Shown: one piece after another, positions 10,375 through 64,000 of the stretch
Layout: each line of letters begins with the position of its first letter
Numbering within the stretch: position 1 is the first letter of the stretch
From: Minisyncoccota bacterium
GTDB taxonomy: Bacteria > Patescibacteriota > Minisyncoccia > 2-02-FULL-40-12 > GWA2-44-9
Direction of reading: 5' to 3'
NCBI GenBank assembly: GCA_030583765.1
Contig: CP129474.1
Span: 331,921 to 395,920, forward strand
DNA: 64,000 nt
Program-made: the position numbers and the translations under genes
The notes under the pieces: model-generated
The model's input: the letters and a program-made list of their open reading frames with translations, nothing else
What the model was told of the DNA's origin: nothing
The model's database searches: none

Positions 10375-10444
10375 GCGCCTAGAAGTATTGATTATTTGTT
10401 CAAGCACTGCAATATAAGCACGTTTTAGCCCTTTCAGAGGTCGG

Positions 10445-20357: not shown

Positions 20358-20729
20358 CTAACGGAGCGAGCCTCGAGAGATGAGGCTTGCCAACGTGTTC
20401 AAGATAAGACCAATTGCCAAGATAACCGCTGCGCCCTTGATACCGTTCCAGATCTGCTCTTTTGCAGCACCGGCACCCTTGTCATCAGCGGACATGATCC
20501 ATTTAATGCCACCGATACCGATGTAGATAACGGCCAAAATCAAACCAATCGTGAGAATGAAGTTCGCGATCTGCTTCAAGAGGTCCTCAAGTTTGGTAAG
20601 GTCCAGAGTCGTTGTTGACTGAACTGGAGGGGTGGGGATGTTGATCTCTGCAGCGAGTACCAAGGCAGGAGAGAAGACAGCAAGTGCCAAGAGTGCTCCA
20701 GCTAGAATTTTTATATTACGTTTATTCAT
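20358..20729 (-). CDS. Pilin-like paralog 1: secreted two-helix hairpin protein (VirB2/TrbC-like topology)
   Basis: Start ATG 20729 (MNKRNIKILAGALLALAVFSPALVLA, signal peptide) preceded by AAGGGGGTGG. Mature part has two hydrophobic helices separated by the loop SADDKGAGAAKEQ. Confidence 0.6.
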   Translation of the reverse strand: MNKRNIKILAGALLALAVFSPALVLAAEINIPTPPVQSTTTLDLTKLEDLLKQIANFILTIGLILAVIYIGIGGIKWIMSADDKGAGAAKEQIWNGIKGAAVILAIGLILNTLASLISRGSLR

Positions 20730-20761
20730 ACGCCACCCCCTTTCTAAGAAATCGTACGGAC

Positions 20762-21214
20762 CTATCGCACGCACGAGCCACTACTTGAGCAATAATAACC
20801 CGCGGGGCACTGCGAACTACTAGTACAAGGGCCGACAAACCCGCCCGAATTGAAGCTCTGTGACTGGATGATCTCGTCAATCGTTTTTACCACAATGCCA
20901 AAGCCGAGAATAATCGCGATACCAATAAGCGCAGCTTTTATTGTACTTTTTGCCCCTTCAACGGCCTTAGTATCGGTCGCCGAAGTAATCCAGAGAATTG
21001 CTCCATAAGCAATGTAGCCAATACCGATCACAAGGCCTATGCCGAGTAGGAAGTTCACTACTTGCACAATAAGCTCTCGGATTTTATCAAGGGTAAGCGG
21101 AGTTCCTGTCACCGTAATCCCCTGTGGAGCCACGGCAGCAACGAAACTTGGAAGAATAATGAACGACAGAGCGAGTGTGACAATAAGTCCAGTAGTAAAT
21201 TTCCGTAGTGTCAT
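20762..21214 (-). CDS. Pilin-like paralog 2 with Cys-rich C-terminal tail
   Basis: Signal peptide (MTLRKFTTGLIVTLALSFIILPSFVAA). Same two-helix core as paralog 1 (VNFLLGIGLVIGIGYIAYG ... ALIGIAIILGFGIVV). Tail GPCTSSSQCPAGYYCSSSGSCVR. The track start at 21235 is a TTG. Confidence 0.6.
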   Translation of the reverse strand: MTLRKFTTGLIVTLALSFIILPSFVAAVAPQGITVTGTPLTLDKIRELIVQVVNFLLGIGLVIGIGYIAYGAILWITSATDTKAVEGAKSTIKAALIGIAIILGFGIVVKTIDEIIQSQSFNSGGFVGPCTSSSQCPAGYYCSSSGSCVR

Positions 21215-21224
21215 AGTGTGTATA

Positions 21225-21566
21225 TTATAAACCAACGCATGAAGGAAGTGAAGGCGTAGGCGCGCCGATAAACGCCGCGACGGTTAAAATAATCGTCCCC
21301 GCCCCCAAGATAACCGCCAGAGCAGTAAAGGCCCATATGAGTCCAGCTTTTGCCGAGCTAAACGGCCCAGGAGAACCCTGGCTCATAATCATCTTAATGC
21401 CGTACCATGCGATTCCTCCAATGACAAGAATGATGCTGACGCGGAGAAAAAAGCACATGAGCCCCGTGGCGATGATAATCACTCGCTCGTAGCCAAGATC
21501 CATTCCCGGAGTTTCTTGTATCCCCTCGGTAAGCGCTCCCGCCGCCATGTAGATAGGGTTGCTCAT
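21225..21566 (-). CDS. Pilin-like paralog 3 (no cleavable signal; two TM helices)
   Basis: ATG 21566 overlaps the TGA stop of paralog 4 (gaATGAgc), indicating translational coupling. Two long hydrophobic helices with a Pro/Gly-rich loop. Confidence 0.5.
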   Translation of the reverse strand: MSNPIYMAAGALTEGIQETPGMDLGYERVIIIATGLMCFFLRVSIILVIGGIAWYGIKMIMSQGSPGPFSSAKAGLIWAFTALAVILGAGTIILTVAAFIGAPTPSLPSCVGL

Positions 21567-22033
21567 TCTAAGATAACGCACGTACCATCACGGCACACCG
21601 CCCCTCCTGTGCACGGTGGATTACAGGCTGGGATTGGCGTTGGAGACGTGCCACTACCCCCAATATTCAACACACTCTCCACTAAATCTACGAACCCCCT
21701 GCCAATAAAGATGATAGCGAGACCGATCACTACTGACCAAATAATGTTATTCGCCTCTCCGATGGCTTTTGGATTTGATCCCGCGGTAAGGTATTTAATC
21801 CCCGCCCAGATGATCATAATAACCGCGATAGGAATAGCGATGGCGGTGATAAAGCGCAGTGCGGCGTTGATGAGATCAATAACGTTACCTGATGCAAGCG
21901 GATTTCTAAGACACAGAGAGCCCTCTGGACATGGGTCCGCGGCAAACGCAGAGCTAGAGCTAAACAGGAGAACGCCAACAAGAAGAGTCATAAGCAGTAC
22001 TCGCATCATATTAGTTATTATATCACGCCTCAT
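21563..22033 (-). CDS. Pilin-like paralog 4 with Cys-rich N- and C-terminal segments
   Basis: Signal peptide MMRVLLMTLLVGVLLFSSSSAFA. Motif AALRFITAIAIPIAV shared with the fusion protein. Tail ACNPPCTGGAVCRDGTCVILE. Confidence 0.6.
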   Translation of the reverse strand: MRRDIITNMMRVLLMTLLVGVLLFSSSSAFAADPCPEGSLCLRNPLASGNVIDLINAALRFITAIAIPIAVIMIIWAGIKYLTAGSNPKAIGEANNIIWSVVIGLAIIFIGRGFVDLVESVLNIGGSGTSPTPIPACNPPCTGGAVCRDGTCVILE

Positions 22034-22038
22034 TTAAG

Positions 22039-22989
22039 CTAATTTAATTGCCAGTGAATATGATTCGTTTGCGAAACCGCGCAGTCTGCGACAACCGCAC
22101 CGCCCGCCGCTTCACAAATAACGTATCCCCCACGCAATGCGAGAAAATCACGGGCCGCTCGCCATTTTGCTGAGTCGCCGCTCGGGATAGTAATGTCAAC
22201 CGCAGTGCCGCGATAATGCTGACTATTGGCGCTATGGCTTCCAGTCGTAAGCGACGATACGACAAATTGGTGCCCATTCTGAGAAAGGGCTATAAGACCG
22301 TCAAGGATGCGTTGGTCAACGGTAACCGTACCCGACGCGCCACCTGGAGTGCATCCAGCAGCGCATCGGTTACTACACACCGACGGAAGTTGTCCCGCTG
22401 CCAGCGAATCTATATTCCCCCGCGCATGATTTGGAGCACCACAATCGGCACTTGTAGAGAATGTAACGCCACCCTGCGTAAGAAGACGTTGAGCTGCGGC
22501 CTGCACCGACGAAGATGGCGGCACCGAAACGGTATTCGTCGGAGCTGGAGGAAGATTTATATTCTCATCGGGCGTACAGGTAATCGGTTCATACCATTTT
22601 ACATTCGCGCCGAAATAGTTACTCGCCACAAATTTTAAGAATGTATTCACCACCATCCATGCAAGCATAATCACCACAAGCCCAATAATTGCATTTGAAA
22701 AAAGCGTATTGCTCTGTGAGACGCTCTTTGTGTTTGTTGCTCCCGCAACCCGGATAAAACCGGCAATGATAAAAAGAATAGTGGCTACCAGGGGCGCCGC
22801 AACAAACATCACGAATCGAAGAGCAGAATCTGCTGCCTCAACGAGATGGCACGTCTGACACATCGCATTCACCCCTGTGTCAGTCGACTTCCCACAAGGG
22901 ACCACAGCAGCCTCTACGGGAAGAGCAAAGACTCCACTGAACATGACTGCGAGTACCGCCCCCGACATGATGCGAGTGAGTGTGCTCAT
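22039..22989 (-). CDS. Fusion protein: N-terminal pilin-like two-helix domain plus C-terminal peptidase M15 (LAS/VanY-like) peptidoglycan hydrolase domain
   Basis: N-terminus (signal, CxxxC, SALRFVMFVAAPLVA, second TM) is paralogous to the small proteins. C-terminal about 180 aa carry the Zn-ligand pattern of LAS/M15 peptidases: SHSANSQHYRGTAVDI (H-x6-D) and NHIHWQ (HxH). ATG overlaps the stop of the upstream SBP gene (ATGA). Confidence 0.6.
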   Translation of the reverse strand: MSTLTRIMSGAVLAVMFSGVFALPVEAAVVPCGKSTDTGVNAMCQTCHLVEAADSALRFVMFVAAPLVATILFIIAGFIRVAGATNTKSVSQSNTLFSNAIIGLVVIMLAWMVVNTFLKFVASNYFGANVKWYEPITCTPDENINLPPAPTNTVSVPPSSSVQAAAQRLLTQGGVTFSTSADCGAPNHARGNIDSLAAGQLPSVCSNRCAAGCTPGGASGTVTVDQRILDGLIALSQNGHQFVVSSLTTGSHSANSQHYRGTAVDITIPSGDSAKWRAARDFLALRGGYVICEAAGGAVVADCAVSQTNHIHWQLN

Positions 22990-51808: not shown

Positions 51809-51813
51809 AACTC

Positions 51814-52905: not shown

Positions 52906-53162
52906 AGCGTAGTAGTTACTATAGTATATATACAAACTATTATCATTATTATAGGAGAGGTTGTCCGTGTATAATTCTGTGAATAACACCCTACCCCTCT
53001 CATATTTCCTTGATTATTTTTCATACGACTCGTGTTGATAGAATGTGTAAATGTCGGTGGTAGTGTGGGGAATGTGCGGGGCGAGTCATGGATATCTTTT
53101 GTATTCTACTCAGATACACTGAAGTAATCACTCCGCTAAACACAGGGATATCAACAAGATAC

Positions 53163-54545
53163 TCACGACTTTAAAAGTGAATCGTTATAGACACGTTCTC
53201 GAATAAGGGTGAGTTCTTGTTTTACAGACTCGTCTTCTGATTCCTCCTTCTTTATTTTCTCGCAAGCATGAATAACAGTTGAATGGTCTCTTCCGCCGAG
53301 CTTCGCTCCAATTTCCGGGAACGAAAGCTTCACCTCTTCGCGGAGAAGGAACATAGCAATCTGTCGTGGTTTTACAACCTCTTTCTTTCTACTCCGCTTC
53401 AAGAGGTCGTTTTGAGAGATGCTGTAAAAATCAGCGACGGATTTTAAGATCGACTGAGGCGACGTTTTTCTATAAGGAACGCTGAGATATGCCGTGAGAA
53501 TGTTTTTTACCTCTTTTACGTCTGGGAGCTTGTTATATATTTGAGCGAACGCAAGAACTCTATTAAGAGCCCCCTCAAGCTCGCGAACATTTTTTTGAAT
53601 ATGTGTGGCGATGTAGACAAGAACCTCATCATCTGCTGCGTAACCCTTTTCTGTGCACTTGGAGCGTAAAATCGCGAGACGTGTTTCAAAATCGGGCATT
53701 CCAATATCAGCCATCATGCCCCCTTCGAAACGTGAGCTCAGGCGCTCTTCAAGGGTCGGGATTGCTTTAGGAAGACGGTCTGACGTGAGAATTACCTGCT
53801 TATTTCTTACGTGAAGCTCATTGAATATAGAGAATACAATTTCCTGTGTTTTGTCTTTTCCAGCTATAAACTGAATATCGTCGATAATGAGCAAATCGAG
53901 GCGGGCATACGTATTTTTTATATCCTCTATCGTTCTTAGGCGAATACTTTCTAGAATAGTTGCGGTGAGTTTTTCCGCGGAAATATATAAGACGCGTCGC
54001 TGGGGATTTTCTGTAAGAAGTTTGTTTCCCACCGACTGCACGAGGTGTGTTTTTCCAAGCCCAACACCGCCGTATAAGAACAGGGGGTTATAAAGTTTGC
54101 CAGGATTTTTTGCTACTGCCTGGGCGGCCGCGAATGCAAGCTCATTATTGGACCCGACAATAAAGGACTCAAAGGAATACTTTCTATTGAGATGGGTTGT
54201 TTTGTCGATATCCGAGCTAATTTGGGCGCTATTTTCCTCAATCTCCTTCTCTAAAATAATCTTAGAAATATCTTGCTTTGTAATATCTTGCTTTGGCTGC
54301 CCGATAATGTAGCGAACGTCACGAACTTCCGGGGCATGCTTTCGAATAAGTTGAATAATTTGCTTATGAAACTTGTTTTCAAGCCACTCGCGCACAAAGC
54401 CATTTGGAACGCTTACAAAAACACCATTCTGATCACGCGAAACTATTAGGGTGTTTTTAAACCAAGTTGTAAAGTGTGCGCGAGAAAGAGACAACTCCAT
54501 TTCAGCGAGGACGGCTTTCCAAAGTTGCTCGTTCGTCATTTGCAT
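53163..54545 (-). CDS. dnaA: Chromosomal replication initiator DnaA
   Basis: AAA+ Walker A NPLFLYGGVGLGKTHL, Walker B LLIIDDIQF, and the C-terminal DNA-binding HTH (GGRDHSTVIHACEKI). Confidence 0.9.
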   Translation of the reverse strand: MQMTNEQLWKAVLAEMELSLSRAHFTTWFKNTLIVSRDQNGVFVSVPNGFVREWLENKFHKQIIQLIRKHAPEVRDVRYIIGQPKQDITKQDISKIILEKEIEENSAQISSDIDKTTHLNRKYSFESFIVGSNNELAFAAAQAVAKNPGKLYNPLFLYGGVGLGKTHLVQSVGNKLLTENPQRRVLYISAEKLTATILESIRLRTIEDIKNTYARLDLLIIDDIQFIAGKDKTQEIVFSIFNELHVRNKQVILTSDRLPKAIPTLEERLSSRFEGGMMADIGMPDFETRLAILRSKCTEKGYAADDEVLVYIATHIQKNVRELEGALNRVLAFAQIYNKLPDVKEVKNILTAYLSVPYRKTSPQSILKSVADFYSISQNDLLKRSRKKEVVKPRQIAMFLLREEVKLSFPEIGAKLGGRDHSTVIHACEKIKKEESEDESVKQELTLIRERVYNDSLLKS

Positions 54546-54593
54546 GGAGATGGGCTCAAACCAGACCGTGCTCAACCCTACCGCGCCCTCCAA

Positions 54594-54727
54594 AAATCAC
54601 AACACGATACAAAGTTGATAACTTGTTTATAACAGGTGGAGAATCGCTGTAAATATTGACGGACGATTTTATCCGTTGTTTTGTCCCGTTTGACCCAATA
54701 TCAGCAGCTGTGATATTCTATGAACAC
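54594..54727. promoter_or_regulatory. Candidate oriC / dnaA promoter region with degenerate DnaA boxes
   Basis: rpmH-dnaA divergent intergenic region. TGTTTATAA, TTATCCGTT and TTGATAAC (7/9 matches to TTATCCACA). AT-rich. Confidence 0.4.
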
Positions 54728-54865
54728 ATGAAATCAACATTGTTTCGTCCTAAAAAGACAAAACGGAAGCGTAAACACGGCTTTCTTTCTCGTATGCAAA
54801 GCGCCTCGGGGCGCAAAGTTCTTGCGCGCCGCCGAGCAAAGGGTCGCTCGCGCCTCTCGGTTTAA
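54728..54865 (+). CDS. rpmH: 50S ribosomal protein L34
   Basis: [45 protein letters not shown] matches the L34 consensus. Confidence 0.85.
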
Positions 54866-54866
54866 T

Positions 54867-55178
54867 ATGCCCCGGCGAATAACTCGCTTTGGCTCTGAGC
54901 GCGCGGTGCGCCTTTTTCTTCGCTCAAATCCAAGCGTGAGAAGGGGTTCGGTGCAGTGCTGGTATGCACACGATAATCAGGGGCGGCTCGCTATTGTTAT
55001 CCCAGCCAAAGTGGCTCCCCGAGCAGTAGATCGCACAAAACTTCGGCGCGTCATTAGAGAGATAGTCCAAAGTATTGCAAAGCCGCCACTTCAAGACTCG
55101 TCGCTCTGTGTTCGGGTGATTGGTGACTCCGAGAGTGTTGCAAGTGACCTTCGAGAACTGTTCGTCAAGTCGCTATGA
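54867..55178 (+). CDS. rnpA: RNase P protein component
   Basis: Basic small protein directly after rpmH with an RNR-like motif region. Confidence 0.7.
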   Translation: MPRRITRFGSERAVRLFLRSNPSVRRGSVQCWYAHDNQGRLAIVIPAKVAPRAVDRTKLRRVIREIVQSIAKPPLQDSSLCVRVIGDSESVASDLRELFVKSL

Positions 55179-55396
55179 GGCACGTTGTACTATTTTTTAT
55201 CCGAGCCTATCAAGCCATCTCCCCCGTCCTTTGGTCTGCGCGGATTGTTCCCGTTGTCAGTGGGTGCCGATTCTCTCCGTCGTGCAGCGAGCGCCTTGCT
55301 CAAGAGATTCATTCACATGGAATTACTCGCGGAATAGCGGCAGCACTACCTCAGCTTTCCTCTTGTCATCCTTGGCATAACACAAAAACATCCTGA
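55175..55396 (+). CDS. yidD: Membrane protein insertion efficiency factor YidD
   Basis: CRFSPSCSE motif. Position between rnpA and yidC. Confidence 0.75.
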   Translation: MRHVVLFFIRAYQAISPVLWSARIVPVVSGCRFSPSCSERLAQEIHSHGITRGIAAALPQLSSCHPWHNTKTS

Positions 55397-56076
55397 TGTT
55401 CGAAACCCTTCTTCATAAACCAGTAGTTAACATCCTTATTGGGATTACTGGTAGCGTCTCAGGCGGCTCTCTCGGCGCAGCAATCATTATTCTGACGGTT
55501 GTTGTAAGGCTTTTTCTTGCGCCCCTCTCAATAAAAACACTACGATCACAGCAAAAGCTTCAAGAGCTCTCAGATAAAACAAAGGCATTGCGTGACAAGC
55601 ACGCAAATGATCCAGCCGCGCAAAACGCGGCAATTCTTCAGCTGTATAAAGATCACAACGTCAATCCACTTTCAGGATGCCTTCCGCTGCTTATACAATT
55701 CCCACTCATTATCGCTCTTTATAAAGGATTTCTTTCCGTGCTGAGCGGTACGTATGCCTCTCTGCTATATGCGTTCACTCCTCAGCCAGAGCAGCTTGTT
55801 ACCACGTTTGTTGGCATAGTGCTTACGGCGCCGAACCATTTACTCGCCATTATCGCAGGGGTTGCGCAATTTGCGCAGCTTTGGGTTAGCGCGCGCTATC
55901 AAGCCCCCTCCGCGACCCCCAACCCACTGCAATCAAAGCAGTTTCTCATTCTTTTCCCCGCGCTCGTTGTTGTTATCGGTTGGAATTTGCCCGCCGGGCT
56001 CTCGCTCTACTGGGCTATTTCAACCCTTCTCTCTATTGGAGAGCAGCACTACGCTCGAGTTACTGCAGGCCGCTAA
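55396..56076 (+). CDS. yidC: Membrane protein insertase YidC (short form)
   Basis: Five-TM core with the conserved LYKDHNVNPLSGCLPLLIQFPLIIALY region. Confidence 0.8.
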   Translation: MFETLLHKPVVNILIGITGSVSGGSLGAAIIILTVVVRLFLAPLSIKTLRSQQKLQELSDKTKALRDKHANDPAAQNAAILQLYKDHNVNPLSGCLPLLIQFPLIIALYKGFLSVLSGTYASLLYAFTPQPEQLVTTFVGIVLTAPNHLLAIIAGVAQFAQLWVSARYQAPSATPNPLQSKQFLILFPALVVVIGWNLPAGLSLYWAISTLLSIGEQHYARVTAGR

Positions 56077-57133
56077 GAGGAACTGTATATATCCCAACGC
56101 CGCTTGCTGGGACCACGAACGCACTCGTCTCGAGCGTGTTGATCGCTATAGACCGGACTCCCATGGCCGTTACTGTGTCTGAGGGAATCGTAGAAACCTT
56201 TTCTGTACCAAGCGCGTATGACACAAAACGTGTTTCTTGGCCGCTTTTAACCACACAAAGAATGCCGGCGGAGTTTTTTCTCCAAGCACATAGGTGTGGC
56301 GAGGTTGCAACCCCCACCTCGTAAGATCCAGTGAGTGTAGTAATAAAAAGATTGGACGCTTCCCCTCCCTGTTGTGCGGTGTGTAAGAGCGCTTCGCCAT
56401 TCGGCGCCCAGAGTAATTGGGGTGATCTATGATGCGCTATAACACGACCAAGCTCCCCGCTTCTAGATATTAACAGTACGTCACCGGTCTGCGAGCTCTG
56501 GTTCTTTACGAGAAGACTCAACGTGTTTTGTTGTGGCCAAAAAAGATCTCCACCTAGGGCGCGCGTTTGTGTCCACTGAACGCGCTCGGACCCATCAAGC
56601 TTCTGGGTAAAGATACCACCAGGCTCCCCAGGCTCCAGCGTTGCTATGGAAAGGCCGTCGGGAGAAAACGCCGCCGCTACTGCTTTTTGCAATACTGAAG
56701 TTTTCTGCTCGCCAAGTCGAACAAACTTGAGCTGCTCGCCTTGGGGCGTGCGAACCCTTGCGATGAGGCTCGTTTTGAGTGGCGACCACCGTACATCAAT
56801 AAGGTCTGGTATGCGCAAGGAAAGAGGAACCTCTTCTCTTGTTTCTGTATCTATTCGATAAACGCGACCTGATGGAGTATCTACAAACAACACCGAAGTG
56901 CTTGTGGGGCCAGCGGTCATAAACGAGACGGTGCGCTCTGTGACGAGGGTGCCGGAGCTTTGTTGGGGCGACGGCGTCGGCCCTTCTTTACTGGGGACGT
57001 ATGCGGCGCCCTGCTGGAGCGTCAAAGCGACACCAGGTGTCTCGTTTGGGGTGTTTATAATATACCAACCAAGTCCGCCAGATGCGGAGAGAGAAAGCGC
57101 TATGAGTGCCAAGAGAAGGTTTCGTTGATTCAT
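56060..57133 (-). CDS. Signal-anchored beta-propeller-like (TolB/WD40-like) extracytoplasmic protein
   Basis: N-terminal TM MNQRNLLLALIALSLSASGG, then repetitive beta-strand-rich segments. 4-nt overlap with the upstream gene. Confidence 0.45.
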   Translation of the reverse strand: MNQRNLLLALIALSLSASGGLGWYIINTPNETPGVALTLQQGAAYVPSKEGPTPSPQQSSGTLVTERTVSFMTAGPTSTSVLFVDTPSGRVYRIDTETREEVPLSLRIPDLIDVRWSPLKTSLIARVRTPQGEQLKFVRLGEQKTSVLQKAVAAAFSPDGLSIATLEPGEPGGIFTQKLDGSERVQWTQTRALGGDLFWPQQNTLSLLVKNQSSQTGDVLLISRSGELGRVIAHHRSPQLLWAPNGEALLHTAQQGGEASNLFITTLTGSYEVGVATSPHLCAWRKNSAGILCVVKSGQETRFVSYALGTEKVSTIPSDTVTAMGVRSIAINTLETSAFVVPASGVGIYTVPLSGLQ

Positions 57134-57696
57134 GAAGCTGGTTTCTTTGGTGTTTCCGGCGTCATTCCGACCATTCCCGCTGCTTGCTGCGAGGCTTTCT
57201 TTACAACTGGGCTTTTCAGTACTGGAGCAATGATACTCGCCCCCTCCACCGCCCTCGCTGCCGTTTTCTTCACTATATCGCGAGAGGAGAAGAACATCCA
57301 GATAAGCACAATGCTTCGGATTGGAAGGGCTGAAGGAAGTGTCGGAATCTTTTCAATTCCCGCCGATATAAGAAACTTTCGCATCTGCGATTTCGATGCT
57401 GAAGTGACGCTAAAGAGTACATAAAGGAGGATGTCTGCACAGAGCCCCACGAGCCACCCCAATGTTCCGCCGGTAAAAAATTCTGCAGCATCAGCGGGGA
57501 TTGCAAGAAACGTGAGTCCAAAAAGAAAGCTCACAACTCCCATTTTTTTCTCCTCCTCGCCCCCCTCCTCTTCTACGACGCTCTCTGCCCTCTTTTGCGC
57601 AACGGCCCGTGCAAGCGCCTGCGCTCTGCGGGCTTCTTCGGCGAGCTCTTGTCGTTCCCAGTCTTCCATGGCTATGAGGCGTTCAGCTGGGCCCAC
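57130..57696 (-). CDS. Membrane protein with charged cytoplasmic N-terminus and 3 TM helices; T4SS-associated by position
   Basis: Glu/Ala/Arg-rich N-terminus, then TM helices. Overlaps the virB4 3' end by 25 nt. Confidence 0.4.
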   Translation of the reverse strand: MGPAERLIAMEDWERQELAEEARRAQALARAVAQKRAESVVEEEGGEEEKKMGVVSFLFGLTFLAIPADAAEFFTGGTLGWLVGLCADILLYVLFSVTSASKSQMRKFLISAGIEKIPTLPSALPIRSIVLIWMFFSSRDIVKKTAARAVEGASIIAPVLKSPVVKKASQQAAGMVGMTPETPKKPAS

Positions 57697-60055
57697 TCCT
57701 TTTTAGCCTTCTCAATTTCAAGCAGTTGGCGTGGATCGGAGGTGATGACCTGGTCTTCTGCGTATGACGCGACAACTCGAATGCCGATGTGGCTCTGTCC
57801 CAAGAAGAAGAGGCCAAATCCGACGCGGGCCTCAAGGAGGTAGTATTTTTCAGCATCGGTGAGATTAAATGTTTCTTTTACGACCTCGATTGCTGCCGTC
57901 GATTGTTTCATGAGGATTTGCATCGATGAGTTGGTCACAATTGCTTTTCCTTGAGGGCTCGCCATAAAGTCCGGAATATCTTGGGAGATGGTGGTGAGGC
58001 CGACATAGTATTTGCGGCCGCGTTTTGCGATATTGAACAAGAACTCAGCCCCGACGGGATATTTCATGAGCCACCACGCTTCGTCCACTACAAGAATGCG
58101 CTTTTTAAGCTCTCGGCGCACCTGTGTCCATACGTGGTTGAGCACGAGATACATTGCGATTGGGCGGAGCTCTTCTTCCATGTCTCTAATACCAAAGACG
58201 ACAAGCTGACTCTTGAGAGAAACGTTCGTGGGACGATTTAAAAATCCGCCGAACGTCCCCTCGGTAAACTTCTTCAAACGTGTTGCCATGGCCTCTGCGC
58301 CGGTCATGCCCTCAAGAATCTGCTGAAGGTCGCCGAGCACGGGGGCTTGGGCTTGTGAGAAGTCTGTTTCGGGAGAAATGTCTCTGATTGCGTATGTCTG
58401 AATGAGCGCCTCGTCTAAGAGCGAATCTTCTTGGGGGGTAAGCTGTCCCAAAAGAAGCTTCATGAGGCCTGCAAGATTGAGAATGTGGGAGTGAAACACG
58501 TCAGCCGGCGACTCTCCTGGGAGGAGGGCTGGAAGATCAAACGGATTAATGTGTTGGTCTGAGTTAATGGAGATGCGGACATTTGTCCCACCAACCGTTT
58601 CCGCAAGGAATCGATATTCGTCTTCGGGGTCAATAACAACGACCTGCGATCCAAACATGAGAGATCTCAAAATTTCGAGCTTTACCGTATAGCTCTTTCC
58701 CCCACCTGATGTTCCAAAGACTACCGCATTCGCATTGGGGAGGCTAAAGCGGTCGAACAAAACGAGGGAGTTGTTGTGTGTGTTAATGCCGTAGAGAATG
58801 CCCGTGCTTGATGTGAGGTCGAACGACGTGAACGGAAAAACCGACGAGAGCGGCTCTGTGTTGAGGGGTGTGCGCGCTTCAATCTTGTCTTCGTGGAGCG
58901 GTAGTGTGGTGAGAAAGCCGTCGAGCATTCGAAACGTTGCTTGCCTGGTGGTGATGAGTTGGTATTCCAAAAGGCTTCGCGCCTTACTCTCTGCCTCATC
59001 GAGCTCCTTTACGCTATTTTCAAAGAGTGTGACGTATACGCCAAGTTCAAAAAACTTATCCGTTCCTTGTTGGAGGCGGTCGCGAAGGTCTTCGATGTCC
59101 ACCATAGCTGTTTCAAGCACAGGATCGCGCACCTTTCCTTTTGCCGTGTCTTCAATAACCTGTGACTGGAGCCTCGTGAGTTGGTTGCGGAGCTCTTTAA
59201 GAACTGCTGCCGTGTCTTTGGGTACGACATAAATACCGATATCAAATGTGCGATCAAGGTTAATAAGCGGCGAAAGCCAGCTCGTATGAAGGTAGCGCGG
59301 GAAGGTTCCAAGGAATAATGTTCTTGCGAACCGATCCCCCACCTGAATGTAGTTGGGGGTTACTTGTATGCCGGATGGGGCAACGCTGTCGGCGATTTTT
59401 TGTTCTTGTGCGGTGGTCATACGTTTTTTTGTAGCTCGACGCGTTCTTTTGGATTGTACCACTCCGCAAGTAGTGAGCGGAGCTCGTCTTGAGTGAGTAT
59501 TCGTCCGCGCACCCCGATACTCACAAGCCCACTGATCAAAAGCTCTGCGCGTTGCGCAAGTTGGTTTTTATACGTAGCAAACTGTTGGTCATCAAACTTT
59601 GGCGCCTCAGTTTTTGCACTACGAAAAACATTTTTTATATTCGACAGCACTCCCTGCGACCCGGAGAGCTCGAGGACATAGAGCGGAATGACGATGTAAA
59701 ACTTTTTCGTCATGATGTTGGAGAGCGTAGAAAGCTCCTGCACGAATTTTGCATATTCACTTGCCTGTATGCGCAAGAGTTCGTTTTGCTGTTCCCCGAC
59801 CATAGTCTCCACCTCTTTTATATAGGCATCGAGAGAGAGTTTACGTGAATTAATCACGATTTCTATGGGGAAGTCGACAGAGTTTAAGATCCCCTGAAAT
59901 CCTTGGAGGATGGCCGCCTGTTCGTCTGGAGATCGGAGTTCAAAGTTTACCGCACTCACTTCGAGCACAGAGCGCAGCGAGCCGTTTTCAAGGACGATGA
60001 TGCCGTCTCGGATGTCGGCGACGTTTACAATTGTTTTAGTGGACTGTTCGGCCAT
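57672..60055 (-). CDS. virB4: VirB4/TrbE/CagE-family T4SS ATPase (Gram-positive PrgJ/ConE-like), split in two ORFs by a frameshift in an A7 run
   Basis: N-domain ORF 60055→59417 (DGIIVLENGSLRSVLEVSAVNFELRSPDEQ) and ATPase ORF 59462→57672 (Walker A VVFGTSGGGKS, Walker B VVDEAWWL). Adding one A to aaaaaaa at 59424-59430 (plus strand t7) joins them as ...RVELQKKRMTTAQEQ.... Confidence 0.8.
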
Positions 60056-60330
60056 TATTTGTATAGATACTTTTTAGGATTAAGCCCATACGAGAGCGCG
60101 TATGCAACATAGTTAATGAGCGGCATGTCCTCTATTTTTAAGAACGCGAACGCGAGAGAGGTAAATGCCGCAAGCGCCGCTACGGCAATAAAGGCGATTC
60201 CGTTAAGGAGCGCAAAGGCGATGAAAACTATAGAGCCCCCCATGGCGACCCACAAAAATTGGCGAAGCGTAAATGGCCCCACGAGGCGTGGCTCCGTCTC
60301 AATAAATTGTGGGACTTGGAATCGGGCCAT
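60055..60330 (-). CDS. PrgI/VirB3-like small T4SS membrane protein
   Basis: MARFQVPQFIETEPRLVGPFTLRQFLW then two TM helices. Located immediately upstream of virB4, as in Gram-positive and CPR T4SS loci. Confidence 0.55.
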   Translation of the reverse strand: MARFQVPQFIETEPRLVGPFTLRQFLWVAMGGSIVFIAFALLNGIAFIAVAALAAFTSLAFAFLKIEDMPLINYVAYALSYGLNPKKYLYK

Positions 60331-60336
60331 AATGTA

Positions 60337-60738
60337 TTATACCCCACTCTTGTTCCGGAGATCGACCACATTGTTTGTTACCTGTTCAGCGCTACCCGTT
60401 GGTGTGCCTAAGATGTTTTCGATTTCTTTTGCCGCGGCGATAGCAATATCATTTTGCAGCCCCCGCGCGACAAGGAACGACGGAACTTTTTCTAGTGCGA
60501 TGGTGCGCGTAGCTACTTCGCGGAGCGCGAAGGCAATGTCTTCGACTACATCATATTTAAGATTATATTGATCGCCGAATGCGACAAGTTTTTCAGCGGT
60601 TTCCTGCGCTACTAAGATAGCCTTTATGTTTTGAGGAAGGGTTCCAAATACAGCGATAAAAGCGCCCCTAGTCTTCGGATCCTCTTTTAGGCGTTTTGCC
60701 AAGTATGGCGCCGCAAAGTAGTAATTCAATATAGACAT
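60337..60738 (-). CDS. Hypothetical soluble protein (133 aa) within the T4SS cluster
   Basis: ORF with a tight 1-6-nt spacing to its neighbours. Confidence 0.4.
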   Translation of the reverse strand: MSILNYYFAAPYLAKRLKEDPKTRGAFIAVFGTLPQNIKAILVAQETAEKLVAFGDQYNLKYDVVEDIAFALREVATRTIALEKVPSFLVARGLQNDIAIAAAKEIENILGTPTGSAEQVTNNVVDLRNKSGV

Positions 60739-60739
60739 G

Positions 60740-63094
60740 TTAAACGATTATTCCAGCCGCATTGAGTTTGTCGCGATTCTCTTGGAGAGATAGTTTCTCA
60801 TGTACGGCGCGCAGGTCAGCAGAAGCCTTCTTCAGCGCATCTTCTTTTGCGGATAGCTTTTTATTCAGTGAATTTATCTTCCTTTGCGCGTCGCGTGCCA
60901 CCTGTTGGGCTTGTGGCGCATTATTCCCTTGATTTGTAGATAGCCTCTGCTCCTCTGCATTAAGTTCTTGCTGCAGGTCTTGGAATTCTGAGCCAAGGTC
61001 TTGGATACTGCTCGTGAGGGCGTACGTTTGTGCTACGTCTAGCCATAGCTCAAGTTTTCGTAGCTGTTCCGGAGTAGCGTCGTCCATGATTTTTTCAATT
61101 CGGTGACCTTCTTGAGAGAGCATCTTTACAAGCTGTTCGATAAAGACGCGATTTTCTGGCTTCGGATCGAGCGCGCTCGACGGAAGCTCCCGTATTGTAT
61201 TGTTGTTTAAGCCGGCGATAGCTGCTTCAAGGCCTTGTTCGAGTTCTTGCTCGGGCGTGAGGCCGCCAGGGACTTCTCGGAGCTTCTCGCCGAGCACGTT
61301 CTTAACAGTAATATAGTCTTTTATCTGTGGGACTCCCTGCTCATCTTTCTCCTCATAGGTTTGCCGTAAGATCTGCCTCTCCGTGGCCCAGTTCGGATCT
61401 TTCTTCTTTGCTTTCTTGAGGAGTTCTTTTATGCGATCGCGTGCAATCTCCGTTTTTTGTTCAAATGCAACGATCCGCTTTTCACGCTCCTGCTCGGTCT
61501 CTCCGGCGGCAAGCGGTGCGAGTGTTGTCTTGTCTGCGCCCGAGATTTGCGCCATGAGCTCAAGGGCTTTGTTAAGGTTTGGCGCGCCAGTAATCTCTCC
61601 GTCCTCAACCTGCTTGTTTACCTTTTCAGCGATCTTATCACCAAAAGCCTTTGCGGCGCGCGGAGATATCTCCGCGTACTTTTGATACACGTCGCGCATG
61701 CCGTCGAGAGAGAGCTTTCCTTTATCCAAAAGAATTTGTGCAGCAGCAAACGTCTCCGGGTCTTCGTAATTTTTCTTACGTAGAATATCGCGCAGCGCTT
61801 CAATAGAAGCGTCTTTGTCCTGGAGCGACTTCTTTTCGTCTCCAATATTCTTAGCAAACTGAGACTCACTTGCGCCAAAGCGTTTTGCGTTAGTCCACCA
61901 CTTCTGCCACTCCTCATTGGCCTTCTCTCCTTTATAAAGTCTTCCGAGCGTTGCGTCGCTCGCTCTCCCAACCCAACTCGTGCCAACCTGTCCCTTGAGC
62001 CCGCTCTTTTCTATCTCCTTTACTTTTGCTTGCCATGCGCGCTGGGCCCCCGTAATGCCAAGCGCGTCATAGGTCATCTGCTTTGCCTTTGTTGCGCCCC
62101 ACACAGCCCCCGACCCTGCCACGATGCCACCACTAATTGCGGCTGCTGTCCCACCGAGAAAGATAAAGCCAACAAGGAGGTAGAAGAAAACGACGCTAAG
62201 TGGGAAGCCAAGGATTCCGGCCCCGTTGCCGTATGGTTGCTGGACCTTAATAATGGCATCTTGTTGTGCAAGTACGTAAAGGCCAACATATAGACATAGT
62301 AAAAAGATTGGGAGAAAGGTGTTCCATCTGATATATTCACTCAGCCAACGATCCCACACCTTCTTCTTTAGGCTTGGAATTAGGTATGAAAAAAGTGCCA
62401 CCGGAGAGGATATAAGCAGTGCCCACAAAATGGGAATTTTTATAAGGACAAAAACAAATGCGATGAAAAATGAAACTCCAACGAATCCGTACATTAGTAT
62501 AGAAAAGAAAGACTTTGGGATACTCGCTGTATTGCTGTATGGGTCAAAGCTAAGGAAGGTTTTTATAGAAAGAGCCGGCGCGATGCGATCCATGGCGTCC
62601 TGCATGTTCGCCAGGAGTGTTGTGCTTATTGAATCAAAAATTTCAACCCCAGTTATTGTGATGGCGAAACTAAAATTCATAAGAATTGCTACCGCAAGCA
62701 CCTGAGGCAGCATTTTTTGGATGGTGTAGTTTGGCCAGAGCTTAAGAATGCTCGCATACGCCATAGTGATCATGGCGAGAATGAAGAGCATATTGACGAA
62801 GTTTCGCGCCAATATCCAAATATCTCGAATAAACGTGTATTCGTGAGTTGTTGTAGCGTAAACCAGCGCAAAGCCTAGGCCTTTAGCGAGCCAGGCGACA
62901 ATGCCTCCAACTATAAGTAATAGCGCCTTCAAGAATCCAGCTATAAAACCCGTGGCATTGCCAGTAAAAAACTCAGCAATAGTGAGTATGCCGTCAGTCC
63001 AGCTAGCTTGCGCGCCGGTCGGCATGAAAAAGACTACTCCTCCGAGAGTGATTATCCCCACTAAAGCTATCCTTTTTGCTGAAAGCAGTTTCAT
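60740..63094 (-). CDS. VirB6-like polytopic membrane protein with long C-terminal coiled-coil/charged extension (784 aa)
   Basis: Signal peptide, about 8-10 TM helices over residues about 30-330, then a Lys/Glu-rich coiled coil. Size and position match VirB6/TrbL/PrgH-type channel subunits. Confidence 0.5.
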   Translation of the reverse strand: MKLLSAKRIALVGIITLGGVVFFMPTGAQASWTDGILTIAEFFTGNATGFIAGFLKALLLIVGGIVAWLAKGLGFALVYATTTHEYTFIRDIWILARNFVNMLFILAMITMAYASILKLWPNYTIQKMLPQVLAVAILMNFSFAITITGVEIFDSISTTLLANMQDAMDRIAPALSIKTFLSFDPYSNTASIPKSFFSILMYGFVGVSFFIAFVFVLIKIPILWALLISSPVALFSYLIPSLKKKVWDRWLSEYIRWNTFLPIFLLCLYVGLYVLAQQDAIIKVQQPYGNGAGILGFPLSVVFFYLLVGFIFLGGTAAAISGGIVAGSGAVWGATKAKQMTYDALGITGAQRAWQAKVKEIEKSGLKGQVGTSWVGRASDATLGRLYKGEKANEEWQKWWTNAKRFGASESQFAKNIGDEKKSLQDKDASIEALRDILRKKNYEDPETFAAAQILLDKGKLSLDGMRDVYQKYAEISPRAAKAFGDKIAEKVNKQVEDGEITGAPNLNKALELMAQISGADKTTLAPLAAGETEQEREKRIVAFEQKTEIARDRIKELLKKAKKKDPNWATERQILRQTYEEKDEQGVPQIKDYITVKNVLGEKLREVPGGLTPEQELEQGLEAAIAGLNNNTIRELPSSALDPKPENRVFIEQLVKMLSQEGHRIEKIMDDATPEQLRKLELWLDVAQTYALTSSIQDLGSEFQDLQQELNAEEQRLSTNQGNNAPQAQQVARDAQRKINSLNKKLSAKEDALKKASADLRAVHEKLSLQENRDKLNAAGIIV

Positions 63095-64000
63095 TAGAAT
63101 TGCGGTGGGATACAGATGGCGTTTGGAATGAAGCGCCGAATGAACCCAGTCCCAGTGTCGCGGAGTGCGGAGATGTCAGAGTTCTCTTGGAAGTTGTCTC
63201 CTGAGCGGTACATGTTCACTTCTTCGCCATCGTGTTGGGCTGTAAATCCTGCAGCCCGCATTTCACTAATGACCGCAGTGTGGAATTTGGTAGCGTTTAC
63301 ATCTCCCGGCGCCTCAATCTCGTTTGGATTTCCAGGATTAAGACCAACGTCCTCCCCTGCGCGCGCCTTGTCCTGTACGCGGTCAATGGCGAGCGAGAGG
63401 TCGTCTAAATATTGGAACCGTGCCTTAAAAAGTTCGTATGCAGGATCTCCTGGGCCGCCAGGTGGCTTACATTCGCACCCTGGACCACAGTTAACCTGTG
63501 GAGGTGTTGATGCCGTTGGGGTGGGGCTGGTTGTCTGTGTTGGCATTGGAACACATCCGCTCGTTTGCCCGGGCGCACATGGCGGTAGCGGTGTTGGTAC
63601 GGTGTAGTCGCTGTCCGTTTCCGATTCATCAAAGACTCGCTCCACCAATCTGCGCGCAATGTTGCTTACCACAAGTTCAAGCTTCTCATCTACGACAGTG
63701 ACCCAGTCAACCTCTCCTTGGTAGCGGAGATTGTCTATATTCCCCACCGTTGTCCCTGGCGTTTTAATCTTTGCATACACTAAGCATCCAGTGTTGAAGA
63801 GTCCGGGCACTAAACAGCTTGATTCTTTCGTGTCGCCGCGCACCCCACGAAATCCTTGATTTGCAATAACCTCATTCATCTCGGCGCCTTCTATGGCAGC
63901 AACCTGACGACTCATCTCGTCGCGGAGGATCGCCTGAAGTCCCGCGGGGTTGTTTTGCGGTTCGGCGAAAAGTTTATATACCGTATCCCAGCCGCCAGCA
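63094..64000 (-). CDS. Secreted Pro/Thr-rich protein with paired Cys; N-terminus lies beyond the window end
   Basis: The reading frame stays open to position 64000 (...AGGWDTVYKLFAEPQNNPAGLQAILRDEMSRQVAAIEGAEMNEV...). TPTPLPPCAPGQTSGCVPMPTQTTSPTPTASTPP linker and CGPGCEC. Confidence 0.45.
   Translation of the reverse strand, partial: AGGWDTVYKLFAEPQNNPAGLQAILRDEMSRQVAAIEGAEMNEVIANQGFRGVRGDTKESSCLVPGLFNTGCLVYAKIKTPGTTVGNIDNLRYQGEVDWVTVVDEKLELVVSNIARRLVERVFDESETDSDYTVPTPLPPCAPGQTSGCVPMPTQTTSPTPTASTPPQVNCGPGCECKPPGGPGDPAYELFKARFQYLDDLSLAIDRVQDKARAGEDVGLNPGNPNEIEAPGDVNATKFHTAVISEMRAAGFTAQHDGEEVNMYRSGDNFQENSDISALRDTGTGFIRRFIPNAICIPPQF

What the first reader, a model, noticed from the sequence alone, without database searches (positions are those of the whole stretch)
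56060..64000. T4SS-like core (VirB4, PrgI/VirB3-like, VirB6-like, accessory secreted proteins) located 32 kb away from the pilin-like array
A co-directional minus-strand cluster with tight or overlapping junctions. It comprises a partial Pro/Thr-rich secreted protein, a 784-aa polytopic protein with a coiled-coil tail (VirB6-like), a 133-aa unknown protein, a PrgI/VirB3-like two-TM protein, VirB4 ATPase, a three-TM protein with an acidic N-terminus, and a beta-propeller exoprotein. No relaxase, coupling protein (VirD4) or VirB2 is present here; the candidate pilins sit at 20-23 kb. A T4SS split across two loci, and sited next to the chromosomal origin genes rather than on a mobile element, suggests a host-interaction or DNA-uptake machine rather than a conjugative transfer system.
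Basis: partly seen in the sequence, partly recalled or inferred. Interest (0 to 1): 0.7.

Follow-up and report, generated by a model that had tools for sequence, protein, structure and literature searches.

The report
Patescibacteria type IV secretion gene cluster
This is a real, intact type IV secretion gene cluster fixed next to the replication origin of an ultra-small Paceibacteria (CPR) bacterium, but this kind of system, its origin-side position and its lack of conjugation genes were already described in 2023-2025, so it is a good example rather than a discovery.

Summary
Window 56060-64000 holds a co-directional minus-strand operon with tight junctions. In order it encodes:
- a partial secreted protein
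- a 784-aa VirB6-like polytopic protein
- a 133-aa protein
- PrgI/VirB3
- the VirB4 ATPase body, with intact Walker A/B motifs
- a small membrane protein
- a TolB-like beta-propeller

Five VirB2-like pilin paralogues lie at 20358-22989.

Most of the core order, followed by yidC, dnaA and dnaN, recurs in the 80 related Paceibacteria loci fetched. A 99.7%-identical strain contig shows only housekeeping genes beyond the window end, with no relaxase, coupling protein or integrase. The cluster is therefore inherited vertically on the chromosome and is not a mobile element.

All of this matches the Patescibacteria T4SS described by Wang et al. 2023 and Quinonero-Coronel et al. 2025. Those papers report TrsD, PrgI, VirB6, VirB2 arrays, the lack of a relaxase and the proximity to dnaA. 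Novelty is therefore low.

Three smaller points may be new:
- two unnamed gene families that keep their position in the cluster
- pilin genes that sit apart from the core in this clade
- a strain-level mosaic block covering the tail of the VirB6-like protein and the start of the 133-aa protein

The function of the system remains unknown.

The parts
63094..64000 (-). 3' part (302 codons) of a secreted, Cys-rich, Pro/Thr-linker protein. Orthologues are 512-531 aa with a signal peptide. The gene runs off the window end.
   Evidence: The reading frame is open to base 64000. Full-length orthologues are L001 4793-6388 and L084 6673-8211. No Pfam, NCBIfam or PDB match. The AF2 model failed with pLDDT 35. 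tblastn found a counterpart in 18 of 80 loci.
60740..63094 (-). VirB6-like polytopic membrane protein, 784 aa. It has a signal peptide, about 7 TM helices (residues 46-330), and a charged helical tail of about 450 aa that is probably cytoplasmic.
60337..60738 (-). 133-aa soluble protein of an unnamed family that always lies between the VirB6-like gene and prgI. It has a helical N-domain, a Pro-rich linker of variable length, and a conserved C-terminal N-[IV]-[IV]-D-L-R-N motif.
   Evidence: An iterative HMM search finds the family at this position in 58 related loci. Alignment A7 shows the motif. No Pfam or PDB match. dN against L001 is 0.43, compared with 0.02 for VirB4.
60055..60330 (-). PrgI/VirB3-like protein, 91 aa, with a two-TM hairpin.
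   Evidence: Pfam PF12666 PrgI, E 7.9e-10, 39.6 bits against a 27-bit cut-off. 96% identical in L001/L002 and present in 72 loci.
59417..60055 (-). TrsD-like protein, 212 aa: the N-terminal ~180 residues of VirB4 encoded as a separate gene.
   Evidence: NCBIfam hits: conju_CD1110 positions 10-139/752, VirB4_plasma 102-233/894, TrsD 26-142/201, VirB4_CagE 11-122/792. These are colinear with the VirB4 body, which starts at profile position 183. ATGA stop/start overlap with the VirB4 body. hhalign prob 99.8% to the ORF upstream of VirB4 in Pontibacillus. Precomputed Pfam family PF26593 TraC-like. A full-length ORF separate from virB4 in the 74 loci that hold the whole gene; L031 is the one exception.
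57672..59420 (-). VirB4 ATPase body, 582 aa from the ATG at 59420, with intact Walker A and B motifs.
   Evidence: NCBIfam conju_CD1110, E 1.6e-106, 357 bits against a 325-bit cut-off. Pfam P-loop_TraG, AAA_10 and CagE_TrbE_VirB. PDB 4AG5 E 1.4e-39 and TrwK. GTSGGGKS and ILVVDE present. dN 0.02 against L001.
57130..57696 (-). Small membrane protein, 188 aa from GTG 57696 or 179 aa from ATG 57669. It has an acidic N-terminus and 2-3 TM helices carrying an invariant D..T.GT.GW..G...D motif. It belongs to an unnamed family that always lies directly downstream of virB4.
   Evidence: Alignment A6. An iterative HMM search finds it at this position in 62 related loci. An independent gene call gives 179 aa. 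No Pfam or NCBIfam match. No match to pCF10 PrgF.
56060..57133 (-). Membrane-anchored or secreted TolB-like PD40 beta-propeller protein, 357 aa. It is the last gene of the operon and its 3' end overlaps that of the convergent yidC gene.
   Evidence: The family profile matches TolB structures at E 1e-13 to 1e-14. PD40 repeats are found in 19 of 36 members. N-terminal hydrophobic segment at residues 8-26.
20358..22989 (-). Array of five VirB2-like pilin paralogues: 20358-20774, 20762-21235, 21225-21581, 21563-22033 and 22039-22989. They are 25-37% identical to one another. The last carries a C-terminal domain resembling a LAS/M15 peptidase.
   Evidence: Pfam PF18895 T4SS_pilin and PF04956 TrbC. 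NCBIfam Mbov_0395 pilin-like, weak. HMM search found the fifth paralogue. Pairwise identities. Zn-motif hits to Hedgehog N-domains.

Best explanation
This is the chromosomal, vertically inherited type IV secretion system of a Paceibacteria (Yanofskybacteria-like, CPR/Patescibacteria) bacterium. It belongs to the Patescibacteria branch of the monoderm MPF-FATA class.

Shown here:
- An operon of at least nine genes encodes the membrane translocon.
- VirB4 is encoded in two pieces, a TrsD-like N-piece and the ATPase body. Their ATGA stop/start overlap suggests translational coupling.
- The operon also encodes PrgI/VirB3, a VirB6-like channel protein, two unnamed subunits that keep their position, a secreted protein and a TolB-like propeller.
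- Five VirB2-like pilins are encoded 33 kb away.

Inferred from established T4SS biology:
- PrgI anchors the VirB4 hexamer to the VirB6-like membrane platform.
- VirB4 drives extraction of the pilins from the membrane and their polymerisation into a pilus or conduit.
- The extracellular propeller, the secreted proteins and a pilin-fused peptidase act in the wall and at the cell surface.

No relaxase or coupling protein lies in or next to the cluster, and its position beside yidC, dnaA and dnaN recurs in the relatives fetched. The machine therefore most likely serves contact with a host cell, by pilus-mediated attachment and/or transfer of protein or another macromolecule, rather than plasmid-style conjugation. 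The substrate and its direction of travel are unknown.
For: Identity of the parts.

The split VirB4 is colinear with full-length VirB4 models. The TrsD-like gene is a separate full-length ORF in the 74 loci that hold it whole.

The order VirB6-like, 133-aa family, prgI, trsD-like, virB4, 188-aa family, then yidC, dnaA, dnaN and a PBP gene recurs across loci named Yanofsky-, Giovannoni-, Sungii-, Azam- and Portnoybacteria. VirB4 is 54-97% identical across them. The best plasmid VirB4 is only 36% identical.

Strong purifying selection acts on VirB4, PrgI and TrsD-like: dN is 0.02-0.06, similar to dnaA and dnaN. The system is therefore in use.

Beyond the window end, a 99.7%-identical strain carries the 512-aa secreted protein, a TSP3-repeat protein, then KsgA, UvrD, the CCA enzyme and tRNAs. 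There is no relaxase, T4CP or integrase.

Literature: the same architecture, the lack of a relaxase and the proximity to dnaA are reported for Patescibacteria (PMC12102498). The Saccharibacterial counterpart is essential for epibiotic growth (PMC10633639; PMC12857230).
Against: - Function is not shown by any result here.
- A coupling protein could be encoded elsewhere. PMC12102498 finds VirD4 homologues in most Patescibacteria genomes, mostly far from virB4, and the rest of this genome was not available.
- No VirB8-like or clear VirB1-like component was identified.
- No VirB4 phylogeny was built.
Confidence: 0.8

Rival explanations
1. A DNA-uptake machine, analogous to ComB of Helicobacter or Ced of Crenarchaeota, that imports host DNA as a nucleotide source.
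For: CPR bacteria cannot make nucleotides. The idea is raised in PMC11665869. There is no relaxase or T4CP nearby. A secreted SNase nuclease is encoded in the same window at 9454-10407. VirB4 gives a weak hit to CedB.
Against: The CedB hit is 37 bits against a 700-bit cut-off. In S. epibionticum, loss of comEC abolishes competence without affecting viability, while the T4SS is essential (PMC12857230). No DNA-binding component was identified in the cluster.
Confidence: 0.15
2. A pilus-only organelle: the T4SS core exists only to assemble a VirB2-like adhesive filament for attachment to the host, and it has no translocated substrate.
For: There are five divergent pilin paralogues. No coupling protein lies nearby. 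In other T4SSs VirB4 is the ATPase required for pilus biogenesis (stated in PMC12102498). Pilin arrays are essential in S. epibionticum.
Against: CPR bacteria already have type IV pili for adhesion; a PilB-type ATPase lies at 44307-46085. The conserved cytoplasmic accessory protein and the long VirB6-like tail suggest something more than pilus assembly. This reading cannot be separated from the best explanation by sequence alone.
Confidence: 0.2
3. A conjugative or mobilising T4SS whose relaxase, coupling protein and oriT are encoded elsewhere in the genome.
For: The closest non-CPR relatives of the VirB4 are plasmid and ICE ATPases of the CD1110 family. T4CP genes are often far from virB4. 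The Embleya plasmid relative has a T4CP and a relaxase-like gene next to VirB4.
Against: The position beside yidC and dnaA recurs across the related loci, with no integrase or repeat boundaries. In these loci VirB4 and DnaA identity to the window fall off together, as expected for vertical descent. Only 109 relaxases were found in 3,035 Patescibacteria genomes.
Confidence: 0.08
4. A decaying remnant of an ancient integrated element, with VirB4 broken by a frameshift.
For: VirB4 is in two ORFs.
Against: The split recurs in the relatives as two full-length ORFs, and it also occurs in functional plasmid systems such as pSK41 TrsD/TrsE. The Walker motifs are intact. dN is 0.02. All ORFs are intact and tightly packed.
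Confidence: 0.02

Closest known systems
Patescibacteria-clade T4SS (Quinonero-Coronel et al. 2025, PMC12102498; S. epibionticum SEML1_0006-0019, Wang et al. 2023, PMC10633639)
   Same: MPF-FATA-type VirB4. An adjacent TrsD homologue. PrgI/VirB3. A VirB6-like protein. VirB2-like pilin paralogues. No relaxase or T4CP nearby. A chromosomal position next to dnaA, dnaN, rnpA, rpmH and ksgA in Paceibacteria.
   Different: Nothing essential differs. Details not named in those papers:
- the 133-aa and 188-aa families that keep their position in the cluster
- the TolB-like propeller
- the pilin array lying 33 kb from the core in this clade; the paper notes that about 40% of genomes have pilins far from virB4
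- the strain-level mosaic block
pGO1/pSK41 Trs conjugation system of Staphylococcus (MPF-FATA subclass with TrsC-TrsD-TrsE)
   Same: The same VirB3-like, TrsD, VirB4 gene order with VirB4 split. A small CagC/VirB2-like gene and a TrbL/VirB6 protein are present. NCBIfam TrsD matches the 212-aa protein.
   Different: pSK41 is a conjugative plasmid with relaxases, a VirD4-like TrsK, a CHAP hydrolase and a topoisomerase; none of these is present here. Similarity of TrsD to the 212-aa family is weak (hhalign prob 56%). The VirB6-like protein here is 2.5 times longer.
Pontibacillus sp. ALD_SL1 megaplasmid locus (NZ_CP062975, 352-361 kb)
   Same: It is among the closest non-CPR VirB4s: 34.5% identity over 97% of the length. 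Gene order is the same: pilin-like gene, 779-aa protein (annotated hypothetical), 116-aa protein, 274-aa TrsD-like protein (hhalign prob 99.8%), then VirB4. The megaplasmid is typed non-mobilizable.
   Different: It has a 1050-aa peptidoglycan endopeptidase downstream. It has no 133-aa-family gene, no 188-aa-family gene and no propeller. It lies on a megaplasmid rather than at a chromosomal origin.
R388 Trw / Agrobacterium VirB T4SS (MPF-T, diderm)
   Same: The VirB4 ATPase domain matches TrwK. The VirB6/TrwI fold is the best structural match to the 784-aa protein. VirB2/TrbC-type pilins are present.
   Different: There are no outer-membrane core proteins (VirB7/9/10), no VirB11, VirB5 or VirB8, and no VirD4 or relaxase. 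VirB4 is split. The organism is reported to be a monoderm (PMC12102498).
pCF10 Prg/Pcf system of Enterococcus (MPF-FATA)
   Same: PrgI family protein and a CD1110-family VirB4 (PrgJ).
   Different: PrgJ is unsplit (796 aa). pCF10 has no pilins and carries the PrgA/B/C adhesins, the PrgK hydrolase, the PcfC T4CP and a relaxase. Profile comparisons with PrgJ, PrgH and PrgF were not significant.

Membership tests
Patescibacteria-clade T4SS (MPF-FATA-related) | VirB4 ATPase of the monoderm CD1110/MPF-FATA type with intact catalytic motifs | tested here: met
   NCBIfam conju_CD1110 at 357 bits against a 325-bit cut-off. PDB 4AG5, E 1.4e-39. Walker A and B present.
Patescibacteria-clade T4SS (MPF-FATA-related) | VirB4 falls inside the monophyletic Patescibacteria clade of the VirB4 tree | tested here: inconclusive
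   No tree was built. By similarity, the 80 loci kept (of 301 confirmed hits) all come from MAGs labelled as CPR lineages or simply 'bacterium', at 54-97% identity. The best plasmid VirB4 is 36% identical.
Patescibacteria-clade T4SS (MPF-FATA-related) | TrsD homologue (VirB4 N-terminal-like) encoded next to virB4 | tested here: met
   The 212-aa ORF hits the TrsD, conju_CD1110 (positions 10-139) and VirB4_plasma models. PF26593 TraC-like in precomputed hits. ATGA overlap with virB4.
Patescibacteria-clade T4SS (MPF-FATA-related) | PrgI/VirB3 membrane protein next to virB4 | tested here: met
   PF12666, 39.6 bits against a 27-bit cut-off.
Patescibacteria-clade T4SS (MPF-FATA-related) | VirB6-like polytopic membrane protein | tested here: met
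Patescibacteria-clade T4SS (MPF-FATA-related) | VirB2-like pilin gene(s), often as a divergent array | tested here: met
   Five paralogues at 20358-22989 match PF18895/PF04956 and are 25-37% identical to one another. They lie 33 kb from the core.
Patescibacteria-clade T4SS (MPF-FATA-related) | Chromosomal location with no relaxase nearby; in Paceibacteria next to dnaA, dnaN, rnpA, rpmH and ksgA | tested here: met
   Gene order in the window, in the related loci and beyond the window end.
Conjugative MPF-FATA T4SS (plasmid or ICE) | Relaxase, oriT and a type IV coupling protein (VirD4/TcpA) associated with the MPF genes | tested here: not met
   None was found in the window ORFs scanned or read, nor in the 8 kb beyond it. 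The rest of the genome was not available, so absence genome-wide is not testable here.
Conjugative MPF-FATA T4SS (plasmid or ICE) | Mobile-element context: integrase/recombinase, tRNA-flanked island, patchy distribution | tested here: not met
   No integrase was found. The neighbours are housekeeping genes and are the same across the related loci.
Ced / ComB DNA-import systems | CedB- or ComB4-type ATPase meeting the family threshold, with partner proteins CedA or ComB2-10 | tested here: not met
   CedB model at 37 bits against a 700-bit cut-off and CedD at 21.5 against 600. No partner proteins were recognised.
VirB4 (canonical single-chain) | N-terminal domain and ATPase domain in one polypeptide of about 800 aa | tested here: not met
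   Two ORFs of 212 and 582 aa cover profile positions 10-139 and 183-733. The split recurs in the relatives. One relative, L031, has a fused 715-aa ORF.

The most novel reading that the evidence does not exclude
The 133-aa protein is a Patescibacteria-specific cytoplasmic adaptor that stands in for the missing coupling protein. Its near-invariant C-terminal N-[IV]-[IV]-D-L-R-N tail would dock on the ATPase. Its fast-evolving N-domain would pair with the equally variable, probably cytoplasmic tail of the VirB6-like protein. The two regions are exchanged together as one recombination cassette between strains (window 60547-61294), which would change which cargo or partner the machine accepts.
Probability: 0.1. 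Interest if true: 0.6.

Novelty: already known. Interest (0 to 1): 0.3.

Why it matters
T4SS genes occur in about 80% of the Patescibacteria genomes surveyed (2,417 of 3,035; PMC12102498). In the one species tested, the system is essential for epibiotic growth, yet its function is reported as completely unknown (PMC11665869). This window adds no new kind of system.

It does give a clean Paceibacteria reference locus with every gene boundary checked. It also points to four things worth adding to models of the machine:
- two unnamed subunit families that keep their position in the cluster
- a TolB-like propeller
- a pilin fused to a likely cell-wall peptidase
- a strain-variable cassette spanning the VirB6-like tail and its neighbouring gene

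Tried and rejected
- **Frameshifted VirB4 pseudogene.** Rejected. The split recurs in the relatives as two full-length ORFs and has an ATGA overlap.
- **PDB profile searches.** The TrsD-like, VirB6-like, 133-aa and secreted-protein families gave nothing significant.
- **First word-indexed homologue search** with the VirB6-like TM domain found nothing. Searches with alignments gave only 13 and 4 hits, so the alignments for structure prediction were shallow.
- **AF2 model of the secreted 525-aa orthologue** failed (pLDDT 35) and was not used.
The afdb50 fold library was unavailable.
- **hhalign of the families against pCF10 proteins:** TrsD-like against PrgJ, VirB6-like against PrgH, 188-aa family against PrgF. 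None was significant. Against pSK41 TrsD and TrsL the matches were weak.
- **dN/dS.** dS is saturated (above 1.3), so only dN is used.
- **Promoter and terminator scan.** Promoter-like sites were at chance level. Terminator-like sites were somewhat above the shuffles (19 against 11.1, sd 3.1), but none lies where an operon boundary would be expected.
- **Rfam.** No RNA family in the cluster.
- **Exact-sequence look-up of the window's 133-aa allele.** Not on record.
- **First iterative HMM script** timed out and was re-run in a lighter form.
Full report
**What is in the sequence.** The right end of the window carries a co-directional minus-strand gene set:
- 63094 to beyond 64000: partial; the reading frame is open to the window end
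- 60740-63094: 784 aa
- 60337-60738: 133 aa
- 60055-60330: 91 aa
- 59417-60055: 212 aa
- 57672-59420: 582 aa from the ATG
- 57130-57696: 188 aa, or 179 aa from the ATG at 57669
- 56060-57133: 357 aa

Gaps between neighbouring genes run from -25 to +6 nt. The stop of the 212-aa ORF overlaps the start of the next gene as ATGA. The last gene converges on yidC (55396-56076). yidC is preceded by yidD, rnpA and rpmH, with dnaA (53163-54593) and dnaN (51814-52989) on the other strand. GC skew on the + strand is negative up to about 56 kb and near zero after that, which fits an origin close to dnaA. Rfam finds no RNA family in the cluster. Promoter-like sites are at chance level; terminator-like sites are somewhat above the shuffles but none marks an operon boundary.

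**Identity of the parts.**
- The 582-aa protein is a VirB4 ATPase. It scores 357 bits against NCBIfam conju_CD1110 (cut-off 325), aligned to profile positions 183-733 of 752. It also hits Pfam P-loop_TraG, AAA_10 and CagE_TrbE_VirB. Its best solved relative is the Thermoanaerobacter VirB4 ATPase domain 4AG5 (E 1.4e-39), followed by R388 TrwK. Walker A (GTSGGGKS) and Walker B (ILVVDE) are intact.
- The 91-aa protein is PrgI/VirB3 (PF12666, E 8e-10).
It matches the N-terminal part of the same VirB4 models: conju_CD1110 positions 10-139, VirB4_plasma 102-233, VirB4_CagE 11-122, and the TrsD/TraD model at 26-142. It is therefore colinear with the body that starts at position 183. An independent precomputed annotation calls it PF26593 TraC-like. 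VirB4 is thus encoded in two pieces, as in the staphylococcal pGO1/pSK41 TrsD-TrsE pair.
- For the 357-aa protein, a family profile matches TolB structures at E 1e-13 to 1e-14, and 19 of 36 members carry PD40 repeats. The beta-propeller reading is correct.
- At 20358-22989 there are five VirB2-like pilin paralogues, not four. They match PF18895 and PF04956 and are 25-37% identical to one another.

**Context and relatives.** A scan of one genome per species found 301 confirmed relatives of the VirB4, and the best 80 were fetched. They come from MAGs labelled Patescibacteria, Paceibacterota, Yanofsky-, Giovannoni-, Sungii-, Azam- and Portnoybacteria, some labelled Saccharibacteria, and a few simply 'bacterium'. 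Identity to the window's VirB4 is 54-97%. Where the held DNA reaches far enough, the same gene order recurs: VirB6-like, prgI, TrsD-like and virB4, then yidC, dnaA, dnaN and a penicillin-binding protein.

Iterative HMM searches show that two further families keep their place. The 133-aa family sits between the VirB6-like gene and prgI in 58 loci. The 188-aa family sits directly after virB4 in 62 loci. The TrsD-like gene is a full-length ORF separate from virB4 in the 74 loci that hold it whole. One locus, L031, has an in-frame fusion instead.

A Logan contig (L084) is 99.7% identical to the window over 50742-60546 and 98.2% identical over 61295-63999. It extends 8 kb past the window end. It carries the full 512-aa secreted protein and a 299-aa TSP3-repeat protein with overlapping junctions. 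Beyond these lie KsgA, UvrD, the CCA-adding enzyme, tRNAs and a LOG-family gene. No relaxase, coupling protein or integrase is present there. None was found among the window ORFs scanned or the other large ORFs read by eye.

Among plasmids the nearest VirB4s are at most 36% identical. One of the closest, on a Pontibacillus megaplasmid typed non-mobilizable, has the same local order: pilin-like gene, 779-aa protein, 116-aa protein, 274-aa TrsD-like protein (hhalign prob 99.8%), then VirB4. In an Embleya plasmid the TrsD-like domain is fused to PrgI.

**Evolutionary rate.** Against the closest species-level relatives (L001, L002), dN is:
- 0.013-0.016 for dnaA
- 0.02 for VirB4 and PrgI
- 0.06-0.08 for TrsD-like
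- 0.13-0.19 for the 188-aa protein
- 0.13 for the secreted protein
- 0.23-0.26 for the VirB6-like protein
- 0.25-0.29 for the propeller
- 0.43 for the 133-aa protein

dS is saturated, so ratios are not meaningful. The motor is as constrained as replication genes, so the cluster is not a remnant. Within the VirB6-like protein, residues 101-150 and 301-350 are 94-96% conserved, while the N-terminal 100 residues are only 30-50% conserved.

**Comparison with what is known.** The literature already describes this system. Wang et al. 2023 found a T4SS (SEML1_0006-0019) that is essential for epibiotic growth of a Saccharibacterium. It has essential pilins and no recognisable coupling protein or relaxase (PMC10633639). 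Quinonero-Coronel et al. 2025 surveyed 3,035 Patescibacteria genomes (PMC12102498) and reported the following:
- Most VirB4s form a monophyletic clade nested in MPF-FATA.
- TrsD is the most abundant accompanying component and is usually next to virB4.
- PrgI/VirB3 and VirB6 homologues are found.
- VirB2-like pilins are present, including arrays of 2-11 paralogues averaging 25% identity.
- Only 109 relaxases were found.
- virB4 lies close to dnaA, dnaN, rnpA, rpmH and ksgA in Paceibacteria and Microgenomatia.

A 2025 review repeats these points (PMC12857230). A perspective article states that the function is completely unknown, with effector delivery or nucleotide or DNA import as the speculations (PMC11665869). 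It is supported but not novel.

**Most likely mechanism.**
- Shown: the gene set, its conservation and its non-mobile context.
- Inferred from established T4SS biology: PrgI/VirB3 tethers the VirB4 hexamer, assembled here from two polypeptides, to the VirB6-like platform. VirB4 powers extraction of the VirB2-like pilins from the membrane and their polymerisation. The secreted protein, the TSP3 protein and the propeller act outside the membrane.
- Least certain: what is moved, and in which direction. I favour host-contact functions over conjugation. Pilus-only attachment and DNA import are live alternatives.

**Details that may be new.**
1. The 133-aa family has a helical N-domain, a Pro-rich linker of variable length and a conserved C-terminal N-[IV]-[IV]-D-L-R-N motif. 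It has no known relatives.
2. The 188-aa family carries an invariant D..T.GT.GW..G...D membrane motif.
3. In the more distant Paceibacteria (L055-L080), a single pilin gene and a ~350-aa secreted protein lie between the 188-aa-family gene and yidC. In the clade that includes this window (L001-L054) no pilin lies within 10 kb. Here the pilins form a five-gene array that ends 82 nt from a tRNA-Leu gene. The separation of pilins from the core therefore looks like a derived trait of this clade.
4. Between the window and the 99.7%-identical strain L084, one block does not align (window 60547-61294). It covers the last ~190 residues of the VirB6-like protein and the first ~75 residues of the 133-aa protein. 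Protein identity falls from 100% to between 14% and 56% with sharp borders. In that block L084 resembles the other species L001 (68-94% identical in 50-residue blocks). The last ~87 residues of the window's allele have no homologue in any of the 80 related loci. The window's 133-aa allele is not on record. By the positive-inside rule the VirB6-like tail is cytoplasmic, like the signal-less 133-aa protein, so the two variable halves may contact each other. An assembly chimera between strains cannot be excluded, although both ORFs are intact.

**Verdict.** The system is real, intact and conserved, and it is already known as a kind. Interest is modest (0.3). Its value lies in the open question of function and in the small additions listed above.

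Noticed in passing
window 60547-61294: This block is a mosaic relative to a strain contig (L084) whose flanks are 98-99.7% identical. The last ~190 aa of the VirB6-like protein and the first ~75 aa of the 133-aa protein are replaced together. The last ~87 aa of the window's allele have no homologue in any of the 80 related loci. It could be a recombination cassette or a strain-level assembly chimera.
   Followed up: partly
window 22039-22989: The fifth pilin paralogue (316 aa) carries a C-terminal domain with the motif H-S-x-N-S-Q-H-Y-R-G-T-A-V-D-I...H-I-H-W. 24 of its 25 weak PDB hits (E 0.04-1.7) are Hedgehog N-domains, and the alignments shown fall on that motif. This suggests a LAS/M15-type peptidoglycan peptidase fused to a pilin, which could stand in for the missing VirB1.
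   Followed up: partly
window 21225-21581: An additional 118-aa pilin-like ORF lies inside the array and was found only by an HMM built from its neighbours. The array ends 82 nt from tRNA-Leu(tag) at 20194-20276.
   Followed up: partly
window 60337-60738 and 58 related loci: An unnamed protein family with a conserved C-terminal N-[IV]-[IV]-D-L-R-N tail after a Pro-rich linker of very variable length (133-445 aa overall). It always lies between the VirB6-like gene and prgI.
   Followed up: partly
L031 5145-7292: One relative has a single 715-aa ORF joining TrsD-like residues 4-129 to VirB4 residues 31-581. It is either an in-frame deletion that fuses the two genes or an assembly artefact.
   Followed up: no
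L055-L080, 1-2.5 kb downstream of virB4: More distant Paceibacteria keep one pilin gene, preceded by a ~350-aa secreted protein, inside the cluster between the 188-aa-family gene and yidC. The window's clade lacks both there.
   Followed up: partly
L081 (Pontibacillus sp. ALD_SL1 megaplasmid NZ_CP062975, 352-361 kb): A Firmicute megaplasmid typed non-mobilizable carries the same pilin-like, 779-aa, 116-aa, TrsD-like, VirB4 order, followed by a 1050-aa peptidoglycan endopeptidase. It is among the nearest non-CPR layouts found.
   Followed up: partly
window 44307-46085: A PilB/GspE-type ATPase (T2SSE plus MshEN domains, E 6e-110) with no other pilus genes recognised among its neighbours. It belongs to type IV pili or type II secretion, not to the T4SS.
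   Followed up: no
window 9454-10407: A 317-aa protein with an N-terminal hydrophobic segment and a staphylococcal-nuclease domain (E 4.5e-25). It is a candidate extracellular nuclease for nucleotide scavenging.
   Followed up: no
window 56060-64000 relative to 52989-54656: If the origin lies beside dnaA, the T4SS operon is transcribed toward it, head-on to replication. The same orientation relative to yidC and dnaA recurs in the related loci.
   Followed up: no
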